Below the pieces are notes generated by a model. That model made no database searches, was not told where the DNA came from, and saw nothing but the letters and a program-made list of their open reading frames with translations. A stretch of DNA of 62,762 nt, the filler included, from Sphaeroforma arctica JP610 (taxonomy: Eukaryota), in assembly GCF_001186125.1 (NCBI RefSeq). It is 6 parts of 3 records of this genome, joined end to end, with 100 filler letters (N's around TTAATTAATTAA, not from the genome) between each part and the next. Parts side by side here need not be neighbours in the genome. Positions count along the whole stretch, not along the records: positions 23,346 to 35,123 come from NW_014040520.1; 5 more parts are not named here. The stretch is one strand, 5' to 3'. The position numbers were made by a program, and so were the translations under genes. Below, in pieces: positions 26,199 through 60,532 of this stretch. Every line of letters begins with the position of its first letter. Positions within the stretch are counted from its first letter, which is position 1.

Positions 26199-26564
26199 TC
26201 ATGCCATACCACTAGCGGATGTAGCCGAACCAGCACTCGCACTACCCACATCTAACGACGGAAGGATGTCACTACGCGGACAGAACACATTGAAGCCTCC
26301 CTCTTGGATTATAGCCGTGGCTTGCTTGATGTCTGGTGCCATGTACCTGTCAACATCATAGAACGGCACACGCGCCCGTACCAGAGCTTTGCCTGCCTCG
26401 ACTTGGCCGGATGAGAGGGATGGGCTGTTTGTGGGATGGAGAATATGAAGGCGAGGGGTCAGAAATCACGTTTTGGAGCGTATATATGCATACATACTTG
26501 TATCTAGGTATCAGCAGACTATATTGTATAGAGTACACGATTCAACCATTCCTACTCTCTGTTT

Positions 26565-26595
<31 letters not shown>

Positions 26596-29500: not shown

Positions 29501-30152
29501 CTGTATACATAGAGGAGAACGTCATACGTGCACAACACTGCTGGCGAGTGGGAGATGTCGGTAAATGGTGTCAGAATCGAGTGTGTAGTCGAGGCATAGC
29601 ACAACAAGGCACAGTTTGGACCCTGATACAACATCCGAAACAACTGCACTACAATACGACCCCAAACAGCAACCGACATTTCGAGACCAACAACTAGGCC
29701 ACTAACTCAAGAGGCAAGGTCACCTCAATGGCCTCACTCAGTATGACGACGCGGCAAATAGCACATCATGGGAAGACATAGGCATGACTAGGCATATCAA
29801 CCCATCCGTTTACAACGACACAATACGTATCTAAAGGGACTCTATATCTATCCCAAACGACCACATACGAAGACATAGCCATGACTAGGCATATCAACCC
29901 ATCCGTTTACAACGACACAGTACGTATCTAAAGGGACACTATCTATCCCAAACGACCACATACCCGTCTTCCCTCCGCTAGCACTTTAGCCACCAGCTCG
30001 GCAGACTTTTTGATCTGCGCATCGGCACTCTTATGCAACGCCAGTTTGGTGTACGGTCTAGCGTGCACATCCATGCTGTTGTGCTCAGAGGCCTCTTCCA
30101 CCACCATACGCATCATGGCCAGAGTCAGCTCCCCAGGTACCAGCTCAAGCAC
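26199..30152 (-). other. hutH: Histidine ammonia-lyase (HutH) moiety, ~554 aa
   Basis: Starts [10 protein letters not shown]. Contains [16 protein letters not shown] (His-specific SH), the MIO-forming ASG in [12 protein letters not shown] (28880-28888), [19 protein letters not shown] and [10 protein letters not shown], with C-terminal DRYMAPDI...LPSL. Confidence 0.95.
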
Positions 30153-33100
30153 GCCATTGCAGACACCCTCAGCCCCATCGGTTGACTTGACTGCAGACGA
30201 TTCGTTGGTGTCCTTGTGCTCTTGTTTGTGTGAGCGGATGGGCTTGTTGGGGGTGTGCAGCATAGGTAGGTCGAGGTTAGCTTCGATTGCGCACTCTTTA
30301 GCGATGTCGTAACCAGCGTCGGCGTGTCGCATGACACCGGTAGCGGGATCGTTCCTCAGCACTCGGCCCTGTATTAAAGAGGTGTGTGTGCATACATGTG
30401 AATATAAAGATGCATGTTGCACTGTGCAAATTGAGTTTTCAGAAACCTAAAACACTACTACGCCTGCAAGCTAGTACAGATAGAAAGACTAGAGCTTGAG
30501 CAACCTATAAGACTCTCATGCCTGCTCCACCACCATCATACCATGAAAGCCACCTCGTACAATTTCACACACATATGAACAAAGCGCATTCCCATAACCA
30601 CCAGTACATCTATCCGAAGTCATACCAGGCGTTCGTAGGCACTGTCTGTTCCATCCGCCACAATCACTACACCAGAGTGTTGGCTGAAACCCATGCCCAC
30701 ACCACCACCGTGGTGTAAGGACACCCATGTGGCACCGCCAGCTGTGTTGAGCATAGCGTTCAGTAGAGGCCAGTCACTGACTGCGTCAGAGCCATCCATC
30801 ATCGATTCCGTTTCACGGTTAGGGCTGGCCACAGATCCTGCAGAATGTGATAGTGGGGGTAGGAGGTCAGTTGTGGTGATATAGGACACGTGGAAATGTG
30901 TAGCCGCAGTATGTGTGGCATCCTGTAAGGTTCTAGGGTGGTTTGAGTAAGAATAAAGTGAAACGCCACAAGATAGAAAGCGAAAAATAATGTACTTGTT
31001 ACTCACCGGAGTCAAGATGATCACGGCCAATGACAATCGGGGCAGAGAGCTCTCCATTCTTCACCATTTCGTTGAAGGCCTGGCCCAAGCGGTATCGGTC
31101 CTTGACACCTACCCAGCAGATACGAGACGGCAATCCCTGTAGTCCAAGATAAAGCACAGATACAGTTCAGGATATAAGTTTCTACTCAACGGAAATTATC
31201 AACTAAAATCGAAATCGATGCACACTGAACATAGCGCGCCTCACACGTCGAATATCGTGTGTGTGGCACGCATTCCGTAACCCATACACGCTGTATCACG
31301 TACCTGGAAGGCGATGCGTTCGCGGGCCATGTCCAACCAATTGTGCAGGTGCTTGTCCTCGGGGATCAATTCCTTCACTTTAGCATCGGTCTTGTAGATG
31401 TCCTCGGGATCACCGGACAGGGCCACCCAGCGGAAGGGCCCAATGCCCTGACAGAATAGGGGGCGGATGTATGCGGGAACAAACCCGGGGAAGTCGAATG
31501 CGTTGGCTACACCCTCGTCGAGCGCCACCTGGGATTAGAGCGTTATAGGCTTGTTACTTACAAGACAGTGCCAATAGAAGTCTCGATGGACAAAGTACGC
31601 ATTTAGTATACCTATGTTTGTTTGCGGGAACTCAGTCATAGATCGGGCCAACAGCGAGCGCAACATAGGAATAGTTATTGGCATATATTATCAATTAACC
31701 TAATACAAGTGCCAATCCATCCTGAACCATGTACGTACTCTTGTACATACCCAGTGCGATATGATTCTTACATACCTGTCGGATATTGTTTCCGTAGTCA
31801 AGTGTAGCTGCTCCTCGACTCTGCAGGGTGATCATGGACTTCACCTGTTGCGCCATGCTCTTCTTGGCCTCCTTGATAACTGTTTCTGGAGAGTCCGCTT
31901 GTGCATCCTTCCATTGCTTTACAGTCCATCCGTGGGGTAGGTATCCGTGAGTGGGATCGTGAGCTGAGGTTTGATCTGTAACAACGTCGGGAAGGATGTT
32001 TCTATCGACCACCTGTGTGTTGTAAATGTGTGCACGGTATCTAGTGTGTGAGTCGGTGTCGAATAAAGATGACGCACTACAAGTAGCATACGTAAGTTCA
32101 CTCATTGTATCGAAGTTCTTTCACAACGATCATCAAGAAAGCCATACAACACAATGCGACATCAACAATGATCCGATAACCCAACAATCTGAAATCATAA
32201 GAGCTATATATCACGTACCTCTGCGAACACGTCACAGGCGTTGCCTAGCAATCCAACGCTAATAGCCTTTCCCTCTTTCTTGGCAGTCTCAATTCGTGCT
32301 AGAGCTTCATCAAGTGTGTACGCTTTGTAGTCGACATAGCGAGTCTTCAGCCGGAAGTCAATGCGACTCTCATCACACTCAACTGCAATCATACAGAAAC
32401 CAGCCATAACCGCCGCAAGTGGCTGAGCACCACCCATACCACCCAGGCCACCTGTCAGAATCCATCTTCCTGTAATGAAAGAGAAACACAGGATCCAGGC
32501 GACTTGTTTAGGTGGCTGTCGGTAATTCTTTGTACAATTAACATCGCCACCATCTACATGCAATTCCTCGGGAAAGAAGAGCCCAATTCAGACATTGCAG
32601 GGAATACTACACCGGATAATTTCTACTCATCGTCAGTTATTTAAATCAAGTACAATAAAAGACAGATAGTACAGCTCCGAAAGGACTCATCGAAGCAAAA
32701 CCGCGCCTATTAACGGCACCATATAACTTATACTTTAGATGAAACCTATTGGAGTCATCTATGAAATGAATATAATGTAAGATCGACTACGACATGAACC
32801 ACCTACCGTCGGCCTTTCCATCGAAGTGTGTCTTCGCTACAGATACAAACGTTTCGTAGGTGCCCTGCACGATGCCCTGAGACCCTATGTAAATCCATGA
32901 TCCCGCTGTCATCTGGCCATACATCATCAGTCCCTCTTTGTCTAGTTTGCTGAAATGTTCCCAATTGGCCCAGTGTGGTACCTGGATACGAATGCACATG
33001 CGAAGTGTCAATTATATGACCAAGTACAGTAGTACATGTATGCAATAAGTCTACAGAGCAGTTTAAAAGAAACAAGGGTAGTTTGCAACCGAACGGGAGA

Positions 33101-33894
33101 CAGAAGATGCTACTATGAAGTAGAGCCACTCAATAAAACCGAGTTTCATAGAATCAAGGATTGCCACCCGCTTTGAGTGCAGACGGTTCGAGTGAACATC
33201 TTCAAACTGATGAAGCTTGCATGAGACGTCAAGCAGATTGCATCTTCTGCTATTATTCCATACCAAATTGGAATTTGCAATGAGCACTCTCGGCGTTTCG
33301 GGATGAGTCTTGAATACGCCCACTGGTTTACCGCTCTGTATCAAAAGTGTTTCATCACCTTCCAGTCGCTTGAGGGTTTCGATGATCTTATCGTAGCTCT
33401 CCCAATTACGAGCTGCCCGTCCAATCCCACCATACACCACAAGCGCTTGAGGATGCTATGGTCGTAAAATAGAGTAACATACAGGATATGAACATATTAG
33501 AAGTGGGTCTGGGTGAATGAGGATGTGAGTGAGCATCAGAACCAGTAAATATATTGAAGTGTCATATGTACGTTGCTTGAAACCTCACAGCATCATGTTA
33601 GTATAAAATAACGAAGTACTTGTGCAGTATAAACCTCGGATATCTTAACTCAGGTATAGGAATACCAGGTGCAACTGTACTTCAATCCGAAAAACGACTT
33701 GATCTCGAGCTGGTCTCATGATACGGCAGTTTTAACTCGAACTAGCATATCACAACCCCTACCTCTGCTACTTCAGCGTCCAAGTTATTCTGGAGCATGC
33801 GGAAAGCTGCCTCCGTTAACCAGCTCTTACAGTTTAGAGTTGTCCCTCTGGGAGCGCTGACGTTGCGAGAGGGGTCATTGCGGGAGGTATCCAT
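26199..33894 (-). CDS. hutU-hutH: Bifunctional urocanate hydratase - histidine ammonia-lyase fusion protein (HutU-HutH), 17 exons, ~1144 aa
   Basis: Exons: 33894-33763, 33455-33264, 32981-32807, 32469-32219, 32012-31776, 31528-31304, 31136-31007, 30837-30626, 30368-29964, 29395-29162, 28924-28694, 28498-28401, 28163-28004, 27652-27538, 27263-27055, 26822-26620, 26424-26199. All borders are GT-AG and the total is 3435 nt in frame. The two domains meet without a stop inside exon 9. Confidence 0.95.
30258..33894 (-). other. hutU: Urocanate hydratase (HutU) moiety, ~555 aa, proteobacterial type
   Basis: Motifs [90 protein letters not shown] and RHADAGY, ending NLDLPML. Confidence 0.95.
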
Positions 33895-34489
33895 CTTTTT
33901 ATCGTTGAAATTAGGCTTGACTTGTGGCTGAGCTGATCCAACAAATAGGCTGTGCAATTCAAAATTCATCGCACATAATTTAGTGGCAAGGATAGATTAG
34001 CGAGCAACTATGAACAAGCGATAAAACCTCAAAACCATAATTCTTCGACACGCTGACAAATGCTATATCAAATGAGTATAGTAAGGAACAGCATACTTTT
34101 TAATATCGGCCGTGGAGAGTGAAGGGTTACAATTTAGTCTTGGATTAAAGAAAACACAGTAAAGTTTTTGAGTTCACAATTGTAAAACTGTATTGTCTAC
34201 TGTAACATTTGTTAGGGACCTCACTACTTATAGGTCTCGTTCGGAGCAGCCAAAAGCACAAGCTTGCAAACAATAGAGTGCAAAAATCGTCGAACAATAG
34301 CCACCATACGACAATCATGTGGTGGAATCCCATATGATGTTTGCTATTTGCATAACAATCCCCTTCTCCAATGACAATCGTTGTTTGTATTTATCAGAAT
34401 GAGTAAAGCAGTGTGTATGTATTGTAAAATGTAAATAGTGTTGTATATTGTATACTCAATTACTCAATGTACTATGCCAAAAAAAAGCG

Positions 34490-39068: not shown

Positions 39069-41581
39069 TCACGGTGGTGATGGATTACCGGCGACGCTCA
39101 CAAGGTTGATACAATATCTGTTCCCATTTCTATCGGCTGCAAAGTGATGCAATATTTGTGTCTTAGTGCAACCCGCTCAGTATCATAAACCAACTTCATA
39201 TGGCCGTTACGAACATGATTTATGTGCACAAGATATCTTCGCTGGTATACAGACTAAGCAAACTGATTTTGTATGTACCAAAGACATACACAAAATACTT
39301 GTGCGTAGTTTCACGGGGCGTTCCCGCACAATAAGAGACAATCCACAGCAAAACAAAAACAGCAACCAAGATTCCATTCTTGAATAAGTCTAACCACAGG
39401 CACAGTCCACAAACATGTTAGTGCGAGTCATAATCATCTGGTTTTAAAACACTTTTCCTTCAGCGTCAGCTAAAAAAAATAGAACACGTATAACCCGTTA
39501 TACTCCTCTTACTGCACGTCACATTCAGAATTCAACGCACAAACAGCTAGGCCTGTATAGCCCGGGTGCATTGCTTTGCATTCCATGCCTACATAGTATA
39601 CAAACTTTCAAAACAGTACTTTAGGGGCCACCAATCACACACAATGGAATCTAATCAATATGAATGACACAGCGGCCGCCACCAAACCTCTGAGCTAAAC
39701 ATTGATTTTGCACCGAAAATGATATAGCATCCTTGTAAAACATGAACAGTTAGTTATTTCGGCAATGATACACGTGCACGGCAAACTTACGTAGGTTGTG
39801 TCCGAGATGAGTACCCTCTAAGCTGACTGTTTCGCCGTCGCTTAAAACCCTCACATTCTCTTTGACAACCTCATCATCCCTGAAACTCGGCCAACCATGA
39901 GCTCTGCTCTCGCTTATAAAGTCCTGCATAGTCCTATTCCTAGGGGCTATAAAAAGTGGTTTTCCGGTCACAGAGTCGTAGAACGTCACTTCGGTGTTAT
40001 CGCCTTCTTTTGCCATTTTTTGCACCTCTGTTGCAAATGCGGTGTGTTGCCAATAGCCGCTATTCTCGGCATATCTTCGATTGAAACAGCAGATGCGGTC
40101 TGCCAAACTCTGATGGCACTTCCAGCGCAGGTGGTCCTAAATATTTGGCAAGGACGGCAAAAAGCGAAGTTAATGCAGACAAACACTTTTGCACCAGCAT
40201 CAATCATACCATATTTACGAAGAAATGCCGTGCTACTACTTGAGACGCAATGAACAACTACTACTATGGTAGAAACGACGGTGACAACAAATCCCTGGCT
40301 CGATCAGAGTACAAGTCAGGTGTATATATGCGAAAATCACGGGAAGTCATCCTTCAGAAAGACTATCCTTCACGAAGTCCCGCATATTGTAGCCCAATGA
40401 TACAGCTAAATGCATACGTCCGTCTTCGTGATATATTTTAAACGAACGCATCACATACCAATAAAATATAGTAAGGAACAATTTTTATTTGAGTTGGTCT
40501 ATGCAGTAAACACAAAATGTCAGAGCTTCCCTTCTAGTAGGAAAAAACAAACAATCATAAGGTCAATTGGTCAGAACATACAGAGCTAATATATTATCAT
40601 GCGACGGATAGAATTTGTACATATTGCAAAACAGCCACACTCAAGTCGCGCAAACTGCTACCCCACACAAGCCAAGACAACTACAAGCTATACTCGCACG
40701 ACGATAAAACTGATGACTCCCGCATAAGGCCTACTGAAAGGCGCAGGAATGGAGTCTGGGTACCACAATGATAATGAACACGTGCATGGCTGGAACATGG
40801 ACATATCAACATGCTCACATCACGGCAGAAAATAGAAATAAATCGACTGATATGGAGAACCCCTTTCGATGATCGCGTACATCAGACACCGACAGTACAA
40901 TATAATAGTGCTCAATCGATGGAATATACTCCCAAACGTGTATAACTACAACTATACGTGTTTCGTTATAAATTAGAAATACCTGCCTCTCCAACATGTG
41001 CAAGTTAAGTTTACATATATATGTATTGCTCGTTATACACTTTAACAAAGACATCTGCTTGAAAATGTGCATATATATATGTCAGTATGTACTTCTATGT
41101 ATCGTACACACGATACAAAGGAGTGTGACTCAAATATGTGCATAAGCACACATATGTGTTTACAAGTAACTTATACATGGTATAAATACGTGTGTCCTAC
41201 GCTACCGAACGGTAGTAAGTATTAACCTACCTGCACAGGCTGGCTGCAGGTTCCGTGCTCTTTTTTACTCATAATTGACTCCTCGCCAGCCAACTCTCCC
41301 AACTTTGGAGCAGCAATGCCCGTCCCTTTACTGTGAGACATCCCCATTGATATGAAGATCAACGCAAAACAGCTCAGTATCAACAGCAATCCCACCACAA
41401 AGCTTGTGACACAGTTGCAGTTTATAACAGTCCTCCCACACTTCCGGCTGGAAGGATTTTCTTGCTCTGTTGTTGTATCAGAATATATATTATCAGGATA
41501 TGTATCTTCTTCGTACTTGGATATATCGGGTACTAATCTCTCAGTATCCGAATCGGCGGTATTATACTTGTTTGTCATCAT
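39069..41581 (-). CDS. MsrB/SelR-like (methionine-R-sulfoxide reductase fold) protein with an N-terminal transmembrane anchor, 3 exons, ~254 aa
   Basis: Exons 41581-41231, 40136-39791 and 39136-39069 join in frame. MsrB-type motifs are FYDSVTGKPLF, HGWPSF, THLGH and RYCINL. The hydrophobic segment is FVVGLLLILSCFALIFISMG. Confidence 0.8.
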
Positions 41582-49898: not shown

Positions 49899-51143
49899 TT
49901 AAGTGTTCTCGGTTACCCTGTGAGTTTTGGTCTTAGGTCCAGTAGGTCCGTGGTGGTTGACTGGACGTTCCTTACGCTTCAGTGTCTTAAGCACATATGA
50001 AGGATGAGCATTAAGGCTCGGGATAAATGCTGTCGGCGGATAAGTTTTAACTTCCGTTCCTTCAGACGATGGAAACAGGTTATTTTTTTCAGCTTGTGAC
50101 TTATGCAGGCGTTTACGCCATTTTCGACTAAAGGCTTTTAAATACTTGGTTATCGAAAGCATCTGAAGTCAACTCAGCTATTGTACCGTCTATAAAGCGT
50201 GTACGATAGTATGTATAGCCTCCCCTATCCGTTCTCCATATAGTGTCTTTAAATTCAGAACGATCAAGAGGGGCATTAGAGTCATGTCTTCTTGCGAGTA
50301 CAATCTCTGTAATCGGAATACGACTTGTGCCTATATTAAGCGCACTAGAACCATCTGGGTTATTTACCTCGTATGTTCCACTTTTGGTGTTTACTACAGA
50401 GATTATGTATGGACCTATCCATTTAGATGTTAATACAGTAGCATAGGAATTACGTTGACGGATGTTAACTGTGTCACCAACCTGACACTCTGCTATCTTC
50501 TTGGTAGTGTTCCAACGCTTTTGCCTTTTTATTAAGGCTATACTTCGTATTTCTCGCAAACAAGGATATACAACGTTATAAAAACGTTGGACCTTCTCTA
50601 AGCATGATAACTCATGGTGATCGGGTTCGTCCTTGTTAAAAGGGATTTGTAACTCACTATATCTGCCACAAAAATAATGAGCGGGTGTCGTTCCTGTAAC
50701 CGGATAAGCACACACGTTCATCTGTGTTTGTACCCACTTAAGATGGTACGACCAATCATCTGCATCATCCGTTAATGCAGTGCGCAAGAAGAACTTAAGT
50801 CTTCTATGGCGCGTTTCATTTGCGCCTTGCGTTTGCGGCATATATGGCACACCTCTTTTATGGCATATGCCTGGTACTAGCGATTCCATAACGTCATCGC
50901 AGAACTCACTACCGTTATCAGTGCACATAATACCCGGCCACCCGTGGTCAGCAAAGACTTTGCAACATAATTCTGCCACGGTCTGCGTATTCTTATCCTT
51001 TAATGGATAGATCAAGTTAACCGTGACGCCACATCAATGAAGTGGCATACGTAACGGTCGCCTGTGTGCTCGGACGTGGGCAGGTCAACCAGATCAATGA
51101 TGACCCTGCGCCATGGAACATCTTGAGCCCGTAAACTTCGATG
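49899..51143 (-). mobile_element. Frameshifted retroviral-type DDE integrase of an LTR retrotransposon, with a possible chromodomain-like tail
   Basis: PWRRVIIDLVDLP...FIDVASR is followed by a frameshift near 51018, then LIYPLK...GWPGIMCTDNGSEF...PQTQGANE...KWIGPY. Integrase is the last domain before the PPT and LTR, which is the Gypsy order. RT and RNase H are not seen before the gap. Confidence 0.85.
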
Positions 51144-57616: not shown

Positions 57617-59117
57617 GAGTAGATATATACATATATATATTATATATATATATATATTATATATAAATATATATATATATGAATATGTATGTGTTTGTTT
57701 GTGTGTTTGTGTTTGTGTTTGTGAATGTGCATGTATACATGTATATCCTAAAGGTGTGCGGGCTGTTTGGTGACCCATTGCTGTGAGGAGTAAGTGCTAT
57801 TCATGAGCCATCTTGACTCAGGAAACAACTTACTAGTACTGTGCTGGCTGCTTTTATCTTCTTATTTAAGTATCTCGTTATTCGTACAACTGCTATGGAT
57901 CTGCGACTCTTATTCCCATTCATTGGTCGGCTATTGCTTGTACTGCTTGTACAGTTTCTAAAGTGGTAGTAGAAATTAGCTTTGGCCACAAATTGAAGTC
58001 TCGGGGTTCACTTGTATTAAAGCTGTACAATATTGAGTATTGTCCGCTTGTTATTAGGACACATAAGCTAAAGTACATACGTATATGTCAATGCATACTC
58101 AATTCATATCATGAAAGTACTACTTGAAGCTGTAGACTATTCGGTATTGTCGCTTGCTATTACTATGACTATACTTAAAAAAGCTGTATAGTATTCAAGA
58201 TTGTCCGCTTTTTATTAGGATAAGTACGCAAGTCCGATATTTAGGGCTACCGGTGCACCTGTTGTATCTGACCTGGTGCCTGCTTCGCCACACAGACACA
58301 TCCACCTCAAAACCCAACTTTCCCGAATTCCAACGAGCCCCGATTCCCGCACCGAATTCAGTCAGCCACCAAAACCCCAATGCCAATTCCGGTGCAGATT
58401 ATGCGACCACCACCACAGGCGCAAGCATCCAAAACCCGGTGCAGGACTCGAACGCACCCGCAAGTTCGGTACCGGTCCCGCTTTCGGTCCCGGAATTCAC
58501 CACCGCTCCGACGGCTCGGGCAATGGCAGGTAGCGAAGATCCGTACGACCACCATGTACTGAATGATAGCTTTGAAGAGGACTTTGGGGATGGACGGGCG
58601 GACGCAACTGTGCGGATGGATATGACGGAGTTGGTAGGTAGGGGTATACTGCAGGCAAATGGGTTGCTAGCCAATGAGATTGCAGAGAATAGCAGCTCAC
58701 GGTCCAATGAGAACGGGGCTATGGCGTCGGGAGACCAGCTGACAGCCAATGAAAACACAGAGTTCATGGATTTTACGGAGGTGGTTGGTGGCGTGTTGTC
58801 AGCGTCTGGGGAGACGGGCAGTACCAATGCAAACACCGGTACAAACAGGAATATAAGCACAAAAAAGGTACATGTCGGCCCTAATTTGGGTGAACAGGAC
58901 AGCCATATCGCACCCCGTGGTAGGAATAAAGTGGACGAGAGATCTGTCAACACACAGGTGGATATGGACACTGACACGACAAACACTATGCGCATGGATA
59001 TGACTGAGGCAGTAGGGGGCATTCTGCATGCACTCCCGGCATCAGGAGACCATGCTGACAGGTCGGAACTTCAGCACAAACAGGCCACCGGAGATACAGG
59101 TATGCAATATATAGATA

Positions 59118-59158
<41 letters not shown>

Positions 59159-59172
59159 TACTATATATATTA

Positions 59173-59207
<35 letters not shown>

Positions 59208-59256
59208 TACTATATATATTATTAATATTATTTTATTTTTATTATATATATATATA

Positions 59257-59287
<31 letters not shown>

Positions 59288-59293
59288 TATTAT

Positions 59294-59326
<33 letters not shown>

Positions 59327-60473
59327 TATATTCTTATATATTCTTATATATATATATATATTGGCCCGCGAGTGCACGGATCATAGTTCGATGTATAATA
59401 AGACCGGGCATCCTCGGTTGTTGAACAGCTACACGTCGCCGATATACTCACACGTACATGTCACACATCACTTTGCTTTGCATACCTAAACAGAGCCACA
59501 GTCAACCGACACCGATCGTATGGATATGACCGAAGCGGTGGGCCGTATACTGAATGCCGACGAAGGTACTATAAAGATACCGAACTTCTTTCTCCCGGTA
59601 TTGGTATCAGATGACGTATCGGAATCATCCGGGAGACGTGATACGAGCTCACCACCTGGTAGTAAGCGAAGCTCCCCACGAGCCAATGAGAAGACCAATG
59701 AGAATGCAGAGAATGAGCGCGAGGATGTTGTCGCCAAAAGGCCGCGGCGGGAGAGCGAGCAGTTGGTCAGCACTCTGAACGACCTCAGCGTCCAACCCAG
59801 CGGCAGTGGAGGCGTTGCCATGGTTACGAACCAGCAGTTGGGTCGCCCCGACAATAGCGATAGGAATGGGACTACGAGCTCAAGACCGAGCGAAGTGGCT
59901 CGCACAGATACGCACCCCAACCCAGCCAATGGGACCGAACCGGGGCAGGACACAGATAGGGTGGTGCTGCACACGGATGTGGCCAACACCCACACCCACA
60001 CACCTGCACCTGCGCACTCGGGACAGGACTTGTCCTCGCACCACGGCGACGGCGAGCCCACCGAGGTCACCACACACTCCCACACCCAGAATCTGACCCA
60101 CACGCACACACACAACCTCACCACAGCCAGTACAACGGGCATGCTGGACGTGTCCTCTATCTCCCACAGCCCCACAACCGCCCGGTCACTGAACACCACC
60201 CGCGTGTTGGCGGCGACCCAGGCCGGTCTATTAATAGCACAATCGTCCGTTGCCATGGCGACGGCCGAGCCGCCGATCGAGGCCACCAGCACGGATCAGG
60301 ACCAGAATACACTCGTTGCCATGGCAACGCGGCGCGGGGGCTCGCGCTTGAGTGTGTCACGCGCGCCTACCCCTGTGAAGGATTTGGGACCCCCCCACTG
60401 TGAATCCAATCAGTGTACACGACTTCCTGTCTCTCTCACAGACCCATTTCATGGACAATTTGGTAACTCGAAG
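51548..60473 (+). CDS. KNL1: Kinetochore scaffold KNL1/Spc105/Spc7 homolog, 12 visible exons (~936 aa), 3' end missing at a gap
   Basis: Exons 51548-51585, 51830-51884, 52258-52340, 53122-53169, 53621-53681, 54137-54227, 54789-54839, 55362-55499, 56141-56398, 57340-57540, 58296-59099 and 59494-60473 stay in frame. The N-terminus has SILK and RRVSF PP1-docking motifs. MELT-type repeats follow (MELTK, MDMTE x3, MDFTE) in a disordered region. Confidence 0.88.
54380..54760. repeat. Intronic ~19-26-bp degenerate minisatellite
   Basis: TATAYAAACTAATACTTA recurs. Confidence 0.75.
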
Positions 60474-60532
60474 GTGTGTATGAGTGTATGGCGATACTGG
60501 TAGCGATTGTTTTTTGAGTACGTATATATATT

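What the first reader, a model, noticed from the sequence alone, without database searches (positions are those of the whole stretch)
26199..33894. Eukaryotic HutU-HutH fusion: a bacterial hutUH operon segment turned into one intron-containing bifunctional gene
Seen: a 17-exon ORF of about 1144 aa encodes a complete urocanate hydratase followed in frame by a complete histidine ammonia-lyase. These enzymes catalyse steps 2 and 1 of histidine catabolism. Established: they are separate proteins in bacteria and in animals (UROC1, HAL). Animal UROC1 is a longer, different subtype, and hutU precedes hutH in many proteobacterial operons. The ~555-aa HutU and the HutH termini here resemble the Pseudomonas-type enzymes. 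Inference: adjacent operon genes were transferred horizontally, fused so one eukaryotic promoter expresses both, and then gained 16 introns. I do not know of a characterised HutU-HutH fusion enzyme.
Basis: partly seen in the sequence, partly recalled or inferred. Interest (0 to 1): 0.92.

Follow-up and report, generated by a model that had tools for sequence, protein, structure and literature searches.

The report
Fused histidine-degrading enzyme from bacterial operon
Sphaeroforma arctica, a single-celled marine relative of animals, makes a spliced messenger RNA that encodes the first two enzymes of histidine breakdown as one protein, likely born from two neighbouring bacterial genes taken up together, and some diatoms carry a likely independent fusion of the same two enzymes in the opposite order.

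Summary
Confirmed. The 17 coding exons (16 GT-AG introns) give 1144 aa, identical to S. arctica SARC_01050: a full HutU (aa 9-555), a ~35-aa linker and a full HutH (aa 591-1127) with every catalytic residue checked. Spliced contigs from three studies carry both halves with no base change, so the junction has no stop; two related organisms splice the same way. A 5' non-coding exon was missed. Each half, on its own tree, nests among betaproteobacteria (Chromobacteriaceae/Chitinivorax-like), where hutU precedes hutH. Grouping with vertebrate HAL is rejected, but a gammaproteobacterial donor is not. None of 229 bacterial loci is fused, so fusion probably followed transfer. New here: pennate diatoms carry a reverse-order HutH-HutU fusion that AU tests separate from this one in both halves, so the fusion likely arose twice in eukaryotes. 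Activity, oligomer state and downstream Hut genes are untested. Transfer followed by fusion is a known kind (crtIBY); this enzyme pair was not found in print in ten literature searches or in the scan's earlier notes.

The parts
34097..34187 (-). 5' non-coding exon (5' end approximate)
   Evidence: joint 33947-34097 in X10 and X11; 91-92 nt of cover and matching contig lengths in X5 and X6
33950..34096 (-). 5' UTR intron, 147 nt, GT..AG; removes an in-frame upstream ATG
33763..33949 (-). exon 1: 55 nt of leader, ATG at 33894, HutU aa 1-44
33264..33455 (-). exon 2, HutU aa 45-108 (Tyr52)
32807..32981 (-). exon 3, HutU aa 109-167
32219..32469 (-). exon 4, HutU aa 167-250 (glycine-rich Rossmann motif, Glu197)
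31776..32012 (-). exon 5, HutU aa 251-329
31304..31528 (-). exon 6, HutU aa 330-404 (Arg362)
31007..31136 (-). exon 7, HutU aa 405-448 (Asp443)
30626..30837 (-). exon 8, HutU aa 448-518
29964..30368 (-). exon 9, fusion exon: HutU end (to aa 555), linker, HutH start (from about aa 591); no stop
   Evidence: spliced on both sides in X3, X5, X6, X10, X11
30153..30257 (-). linker, aa 556-590, predicted disordered
   Evidence: pLDDT under 50 at 558-589 (few alignment rows cover it); no significant likeness to 29 bacterial spacers
29162..29395 (-). exon 10, HutH aa 654-731 (Tyr655, His685)
28694..28924 (-). exon 11, HutH aa 732-808; Ala-Ser-Gly MIO triad 744-746 at 28888-28880, Asn797
28401..28498 (-). 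exon 12, HutH aa 809-841
28004..28163 (-). exon 13, HutH aa 841-894, with a ~16-aa insertion against bacterial HutH
27538..27652 (-). exon 14, HutH aa 895-933 (Tyr897, Arg900)
27055..27263 (-). exon 15, HutH aa 933-1002 (Phe946)
26620..26822 (-). exon 16, HutH aa 1003-1070 (Glu1031)
26199..26424 (-). exon 17, coding part: HutH to aa 1127, 17-aa Ser/Ala-rich tail, TGA
25840..26198 (-). 3' UTR (contigs end at 25840-25963)
   Evidence: table 8

Best explanation
This is a real, transcribed and spliced Sphaeroforma gene for one polypeptide that joins urocanate hydratase to histidine ammonia-lyase; it is predicted to turn histidine into urocanate and then imidazolonepropionate in the cytosol, and it likely arose when a hutU-hutH piece of a betaproteobacterial operon entered an ancestor and lost the stop between the two genes. 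Shown: gene model, splicing, open junction, domain identity, catalytic residues, placement of both halves among proteobacteria. Inferred: (1) both halves are active; (2) transfer as one piece from a Chromobacteriaceae/Chitinivorax-like donor; (3) fusion after transfer, because a eukaryotic ribosome would not translate the second cistron, so loss of the stop is the shortest route to expressing HutH; the linker would be the drifted intergenic spacer; (4) introns were gained later at G|GT proto-splice sites; (5) the halves fold separately on a flexible tether, HutH forms its tetramer and the four tethered HutU domains pair into two dimers (about 500 kDa, estimated), which gives 1:1 co-expression and proximity without a closed channel.
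For: Model identical to P0001. Single spliced contigs with no differing base in 3 studies, none in the DNA-like run; same joints around exon 9 in two other organisms. HutH residues equal to P. putida Y53, H83, A142-S143-G144, N195, Q277, Y280, R283, F329, E414 all present (the role of their Geobacillus counterparts from passages of PMC11432326). HutU aligns without gaps to P. putida urocanase aa 9-555. HutH tree: 17-row clade of Chromobacteriaceae + Chitinivorax, 96/86. HutU tree: 24-row mostly betaproteobacterial clade, 100/95. Joined halves, mixture model: 17-row betaproteobacterial clade, 89/91. AU rejects grouping with vertebrate HAL (3e-5), with the diatom fusion (4e-5 and 1e-55) and with P0243 (1e-3 and 7e-8). 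44 of 55 named loci with both genes have hutU directly before hutH; 0 of 229 loci fused. Distance between equivalent residues is 120 nt here and often 92-244 nt in the nearest loci. 16 of 16 exons before an intron end in G, 11 of 16 in AG (CDS background 0.29 and 0.07). No leader peptide: first ATG at 33894.
Against: The nearest sister differs between halves (Craterilacuibacter for HutU, unresolved for HutH), the joined tree has no starred group holding the query, and gammaproteobacterial placements are not rejected (p-AU 0.15, 0.23). The U-before-H order is common in these bacteria and the loci were picked by likeness to the query, so order alone is weak. The linker shows no significant likeness to any of 29 spacers (best p 0.013 before correction), and spacings run from 26 to over 2000 nt. 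A Burkholderiales-type U-H fusion exists as predicted proteins (P0123, P0241, P0243), so a donor that was already fused is possible. Contigs are not single molecules. No activity, protein or oligomer data. No genome was held, so hutI, hutG/FTCD and any animal-type paralogs were not checked.
Confidence: 0.72

Rival explanations
1. The two genes were already fused in the bacterial donor, and Sphaeroforma received a ready-made bifunctional gene (as reported for animal spermine synthase and allantoin synthase).
For: A U-H fusion with a Pro/Ala/Ser linker occurs in 3 predicted proteins of one JGI cluster. Precedents: abstract of PMC12803844; passage of bioRxiv 10.1101/2020.01.24.918219.
Against: That cluster is rejected as sister in both halves. 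0 of 229 loci are fused. In the 68 genomes of the family of G001, all 14 matches that span both halves contain stops.
Confidence: 0.12
2. hutU and hutH came in two separate transfers from related bacteria and were joined later in the eukaryotic genome.
For: Different nearest sisters for the two halves; HutH has a longer branch (0.46 against 0.28) and two insertions.
Against: Both halves fall in the same betaproteobacterial neighbourhood and a common group is not rejected for either (p-AU 0.54, 0.10). The order matches the operon, and no intron interrupts the linker, as exon shuffling would often leave.
Confidence: 0.1
3. The fusion is transcribed, but only one half works, or the protein is cut in the linker so that the enzymes act apart.
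For: Long linker with low predicted confidence; no assay exists.
Against: Both halves pass the equivalog cut-offs and keep the checked active-site residues; exon 9 has no gaps in two relatives.
Confidence: 0.05
4. Artefact: bacterial contamination or a gene model that wrongly joins two genes.
For: Many database U+H proteins look like such artefacts.
Against: 16 coding introns removed in RNA-type contigs, a junction inside one exon, a eukaryotic neighbourhood.
Confidence: 0.01

Closest known systems
Bacterial HutU (TIGR01228; P. putida 1uwk/1uwl) and HutH (TIGR01225; P. putida 1b8f/1gkm) of hutUH operons, closest in Chromobacteriaceae and Chitinivorax
   Same: Same domains, folds, catalytic residues and U-before-H order; 80-84% and 66-68% identity.
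   Different: One polypeptide with a ~35-aa linker, 17 introns, two insertions in HutH, a Ser/Ala tail; none of 229 bacterial loci is fused.
crtIBY trifunctional fusion of thraustochytrids (PMC10016063, two passages read)
   Same: Consecutive pathway enzymes of bacterial, probably operon, origin fused in a protist; that paper states the 'eukaryotification by fusion' argument.
   Different: Other pathway; function shown there, not here; here two separate fusions in opposite orders are seen.
Eukaryotic nitrile hydratase beta-alpha fusion (PMC3323583, passages read)
   Same: Operon-encoded bacterial-type genes fused and rich in introns, also in S. arctica (10 introns).
   Different: Joins two subunits of one enzyme and is spread over several supergroups; the present gene joins two enzymes and was found only in Sphaeroforma-like organisms.
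Diatom HutH-HutU fusion (EukProt Gedaniella sp. CCMP2646 and Amphora coffeiformis; database records, no paper found)
   Same: Both enzymes complete in one chain, above both equivalog cut-offs, HAL residues intact.
   Different: Reverse order, short linker, 58% and 42-45% identity to this protein, closest fetched HutU relatives are Chloroflexota; common origin rejected.
Animal HAL and UROC1
   Same: Same two reactions (established knowledge).
   Different: Separate genes; vertebrate HAL is far off in the tree and rejected as sister. No animal UROC1 was fetched; the long Trypanosoma urocanase scores 302 bits against 942 for P. putida.

Membership tests
Urocanate hydratase HutU (TIGR01228) | Score above the equivalog cut-off, and below the cut-offs of thiourocanate hydratases | tested here: met
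   948.5 against 375; NF058531 700 < 880; NF058530 680 < 930
Urocanate hydratase HutU (TIGR01228) | N, Rossmann and C domains complete; active-site residues Y52, T133, E197, R362, D443, R455 | tested here: met
   the list of residues is recalled, a paper search for it found nothing
Urocanate hydratase HutU (TIGR01228) | Bound NAD+, homodimer, urocanate hydration | not testable with these tools
   needs protein; the dimer state is recalled
Histidine ammonia-lyase HutH (TIGR01225) | Score above cut-off, and below those of PAL, TAL and aminomutases | tested here: met
   643.9 against 539; all seven other lyase or mutase models below their cut-offs
Histidine ammonia-lyase HutH (TIGR01225) | Ala-Ser-Gly MIO triad, His83 and catalytic Y53, N195, Q277, Y280, R283, F329, E414 | tested here: met
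   A744-S745-G746, H685, Y655, N797, Q894, Y897, R900, F946, E1031 (PMC11432326 passages)
Histidine ammonia-lyase HutH (TIGR01225) | Homotetramer, MIO formation, histidine deamination | not testable with these tools
   tetramer of known HALs from PMC11432326; not shown for this protein
Horizontal operon transfer followed by fusion | Gene is eukaryotic (spliced, eukaryotic neighbours) | tested here: met
Horizontal operon transfer followed by fusion | Each part nests inside bacteria, apart from eukaryotic homologs | tested here: met
   vertebrate HAL and diatom halves rejected as sisters; no animal UROC1 in the HutU tree
Horizontal operon transfer followed by fusion | Both parts share one donor lineage | tested here: inconclusive
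   same neighbourhood in both trees, but sisters differ and gamma alternatives are not rejected
Horizontal operon transfer followed by fusion | Order matches donor operon; donor genes unfused | tested here: met
   44 of 55 named loci U>H adjacent; 0 of 229 fused; loci chosen by likeness to the query
Horizontal operon transfer followed by fusion | Trace of the intergenic spacer in the linker | tested here: inconclusive
   length compatible, sequence likeness not significant in 29 tests

The most novel reading that the evidence does not exclude
The first two steps of histidine catabolism were fused twice in eukaryotes, from donors of two bacterial phyla and in opposite orders (Sphaeroforma HutU-HutH, pennate diatoms HutH-HutU), because the pair is selected as a unit. 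Joining a tetramer-forming enzyme to a dimer-forming one builds a natural bi-enzyme assembly (a dumbbell of one HutH tetramer and two HutU dimers, or a cross-linked polymer) that keeps free urocanate low. Urocanate is the inducer of bacterial hut genes, so this could also lower a cue read by surrounding bacteria.
Probability: 0.25. Interest if true: 0.75.

Novelty: new variant of a known kind. Interest (0 to 1): 0.52.

Why it matters
It is a clean, transcript-backed case of a bacterial operon piece being made usable in a close relative of animals, in a pathway where animals use separate genes. The diatom counterpart makes it a natural replicate: same two enzymes, another donor, opposite order. 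That allows a direct test of whether such fusions are only an expression fix or give a kinetic gain. It also poses a structural question, how a tetrameric and a dimeric enzyme share one chain, and offers a ready single-chain histidine-to-imidazolonepropionate catalyst. The chemistry itself is ordinary.

Tried and rejected
No whole genome was held, so downstream Hut genes and paralogs were not searched. No RNA holder is on record as RNA; the RNA nature of X3, X5, X6, X10 and X11 is read from their spliced joints. Runs X16 and X18 gave nothing when laid: no evidence either way. Linker as a recognisable spacer: best p 0.013 of 29 tests, rejected. Introns as copies of one mobile element: no likeness between different introns. 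Structure: single-chain model pTM 0.53 with HutH matching at TM 0.96 and HutU at 0.75; it says nothing on how the halves sit. Complex prediction of the two halves was not available. The 50%-cluster search returned no full-length fusion among its best 150, and the Atlas gave no usable hit: neither shows absence. Other U+H database proteins: 45 of the 119 other hits hold parts of both enzymes. Most have one half cut short or out-of-frame-looking junctions and are read as frameshift or assembly artefacts; the Astraeus-labelled P0122 groups with Pseudomonas and Photorhabdus and is read as contamination. The P0243 bacterial fusion could not be confirmed in DNA. A first order-level genome search with one exon was too small to use. 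Literature: 10 searches showed no paper on a HutU/HutH fusion, judged from listings and abstract starts. Two papers asked for by id were not held. Supplementary HGT tables for ichthyosporeans and diatoms were not seen and may list these genes. Earlier scan notes held nothing on this fusion.
Full report
Observation. I rebuilt the gene from the window by coordinates. Seventeen minus-strand coding exons from 33894 to 26199 give 3435 nt and 1144 aa with only the terminal stop; all 16 introns are GT..AG. The translation is identical to P0001, which the sources name SARC_01050 of Sphaeroforma arctica and 'histidine ammonia-lyase'. Pfam and NCBIfam find a complete urocanase (aa 11-554, 948 bits, cut-off 375) and a complete histidase (644 bits, cut-off 539); related thiourocanate hydratases, PAL, TAL and aminomutases stay below their cut-offs. 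HutU aligns without gaps to P. putida urocanase. The HutH half keeps all 14 positions checked against P. putida numbering, among them the MIO triad A744-S745-G746 and His685. The end of HutU, a ~35-aa linker and the start of HutH lie in one exon (exon 9).

Expression. The run search listed 21 runs, none on record as RNA. Of the four laid, X3, X5 and X6 (three studies) each hold one contig with the introns removed (15 joints listed, 2 not shown) and no differing base; the X3 contig stops in exon 2, while X5 and X6 span the whole CDS. X12 covers the introns and shows no joint. Of the four laid, X10 and X11 (two other organism labels) show the listed joints, including both sides of exon 9, with 7 and 5 changes in 406 nt and no gaps there; I did not see those single changes, so an open junction in the relatives is likely, not shown. 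X16 and X18 gave nothing. These data also reveal a 5' non-coding exon and a 147-nt UTR intron; with them the X5 and X6 contig lengths add up, and the leader has no ATG. Contigs are not single molecules, but a transcript ending in exon 9 would leave HutU without a stop.

Origin. The best hits of the HutH half are Chitinivorax and Chromobacterium proteins (63-68% over the 120 listed; none carries a eukaryotic name). The best HutU matches among loci are Chromobacteriaceae (81-84%). Maximum-likelihood trees of 50 rows each (chosen from 115 and 118 rows of first-pass trees) put HutH in a clade of Chromobacteriaceae plus Chitinivorax (96/86) and HutU in a mostly betaproteobacterial clade (100/95), sister to Craterilacuibacter (97/84). 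The joined halves under a mixture model (30 rows) fall unresolved in a 17-row betaproteobacterial clade (89/91, not starred). AU tests on 26-row trees reject a clade with vertebrate HAL (P0467, a caecilian protein), with the diatom fusion and with P0243. They do not reject Chromobacteriaceae/Chitinivorax (0.54, 0.10), nor a gammaproteobacterial grouping (0.15, 0.23). So a beta/gamma-proteobacterial origin is firm, and a Chromobacteriaceae-like donor is the best guess. hutU lies directly before hutH in 44 of 55 named loci with both genes, and no ORF in 229 loci holds both enzymes. The linker length fits the spacing in the nearest loci, but its sequence does not match any of 29 spacers. All 16 coding introns follow a G and 11 follow AG, as expected for gain at proto-splice sites (established knowledge).

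How common is the fusion. The search with the whole protein (629-2002 aa; best 120 of 7989 candidates) found no other U-H fusion from a named ichthyosporean. That search is word-limited and I do not know which relatives the database holds. 45 of the other 119 hits contain parts of both enzymes; most look like frameshift or assembly artefacts. Two groups do not. The first is a reverse-order HutH-HutU protein of 1077-1114 aa, named in EukProt for the diatoms Gedaniella sp. CCMP2646 and Amphora coffeiformis and found in further unnamed records. Four lineages are 75-81% identical; the three scanned pass both equivalog cut-offs and keep the HAL residues. Some versions carry a 33-aa in-frame insertion that looks like a read-through intron. 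Their closest fetched HutU relatives are Chloroflexota (Kouleothrix 69%, a Ktedonobacter cluster 68%). The second is a Burkholderiales-type U-H protein seen three times with the same linker in one JGI cluster, which I could not confirm in DNA.

Mechanism. Most likely (0.72) the protein is a cytosolic bifunctional enzyme: HutH deaminates histidine at its MIO group, and HutU hydrates the urocanate with bound NAD+ (pathway order from a passage of PMC8034625; the NAD+ role is established knowledge). The linker is predicted disordered and the halves match their bacterial folds separately. Known HALs are tetramers (PMC11432326, passages) and urocanase is a dimer (recalled), so four chains would give one HutH core with two HutU dimers, or cross-link into larger assemblies. 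This is inference; no complex could be folded. The simplest reason for the fusion is expression of the second cistron, an argument stated for crtIBY (PMC10016063, passages). Whether Sphaeroforma has the later Hut steps is unknown; none was seen among 30 of 140 flanking ORFs scanned.

Known work. Transfer with fusion is a known kind: crtIBY (passages), nitrile hydratase (PMC3323583, passages), spermine synthase (PMC12803844, abstract), allantoin synthase (bioRxiv 10.1101/2020.01.24.918219, one passage; that preprint's main text has no hit for histidine or urocan-). PMC1550239 and PMC9002059 (passages) mention no fusion. Ten searches found no paper on a HutU/HutH fusion; the library omits most subscription papers, and supplements were not read. 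The protein sits in public databases with both Pfam sets but is named only as a histidase or hypothetical protein.

Verdict. Observation confirmed, interpretation supported with a corrected donor and one addition, the likely independent diatom fusion. New variant of a known kind; interest 0.52.

Noticed in passing
P0245, P0130/P0260, P0131, P0261 (protein records; no locus fetched): Reverse-order HutH-HutU fusion in pennate diatoms, closest fetched HutU relatives Chloroflexota, separate origin by AU tests; no paper found.
   Followed up: partly
P0123, P0241, P0243 (JGI cluster): Burkholderiales-type HutU-HutH fusion with a Pro/Ala/Ser linker in three predicted proteins; not confirmed in DNA (0 of 229 loci fused).
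   Followed up: partly
P0122: HutU-HutH protein labelled Astraeus odoratus groups with Pseudomonas and Photorhabdus and has a cut HutU end: probably a bacterial contaminant joined by a gene model.
   Followed up: partly
window 29772-29963: 97-nt tandem duplication (95% identical) at the start of intron 9.
   Followed up: no
L079-L081, L127, L128: Some genomes of the family of G001 pair a HutH typical of the family with a HutU of another clade (69% against 81-84%), which suggests in-place replacement of hutU within the operon.
   Followed up: no
window 4474-7140 (-), 16120-18208 (-), 58169-60500 (+): Exon pieces with weak TPT-transporter, lipid-droplet hydrolase and MELT-motif matches: an ordinary eukaryotic neighbourhood.
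   Followed up: no
window 49902-51033 (-): 301-aa ORF that reads like a retrotransposon integrase by eye; no Pfam match at E 0.01.
   Followed up: no
window 39753-40136 (-): ORF that by eye resembles a methionine sulfoxide reductase B-like protein; no Pfam match.
   Followed up: no
P0138, P0140, P0152, P0156, P0157: HutU proteins of 700-830 aa that also carry PF05013 (recalled as N-formylglutamate amidohydrolase), two in clusters of 15 and 37 members: possible HutU-HutG fusions or artefacts.
   Followed up: no
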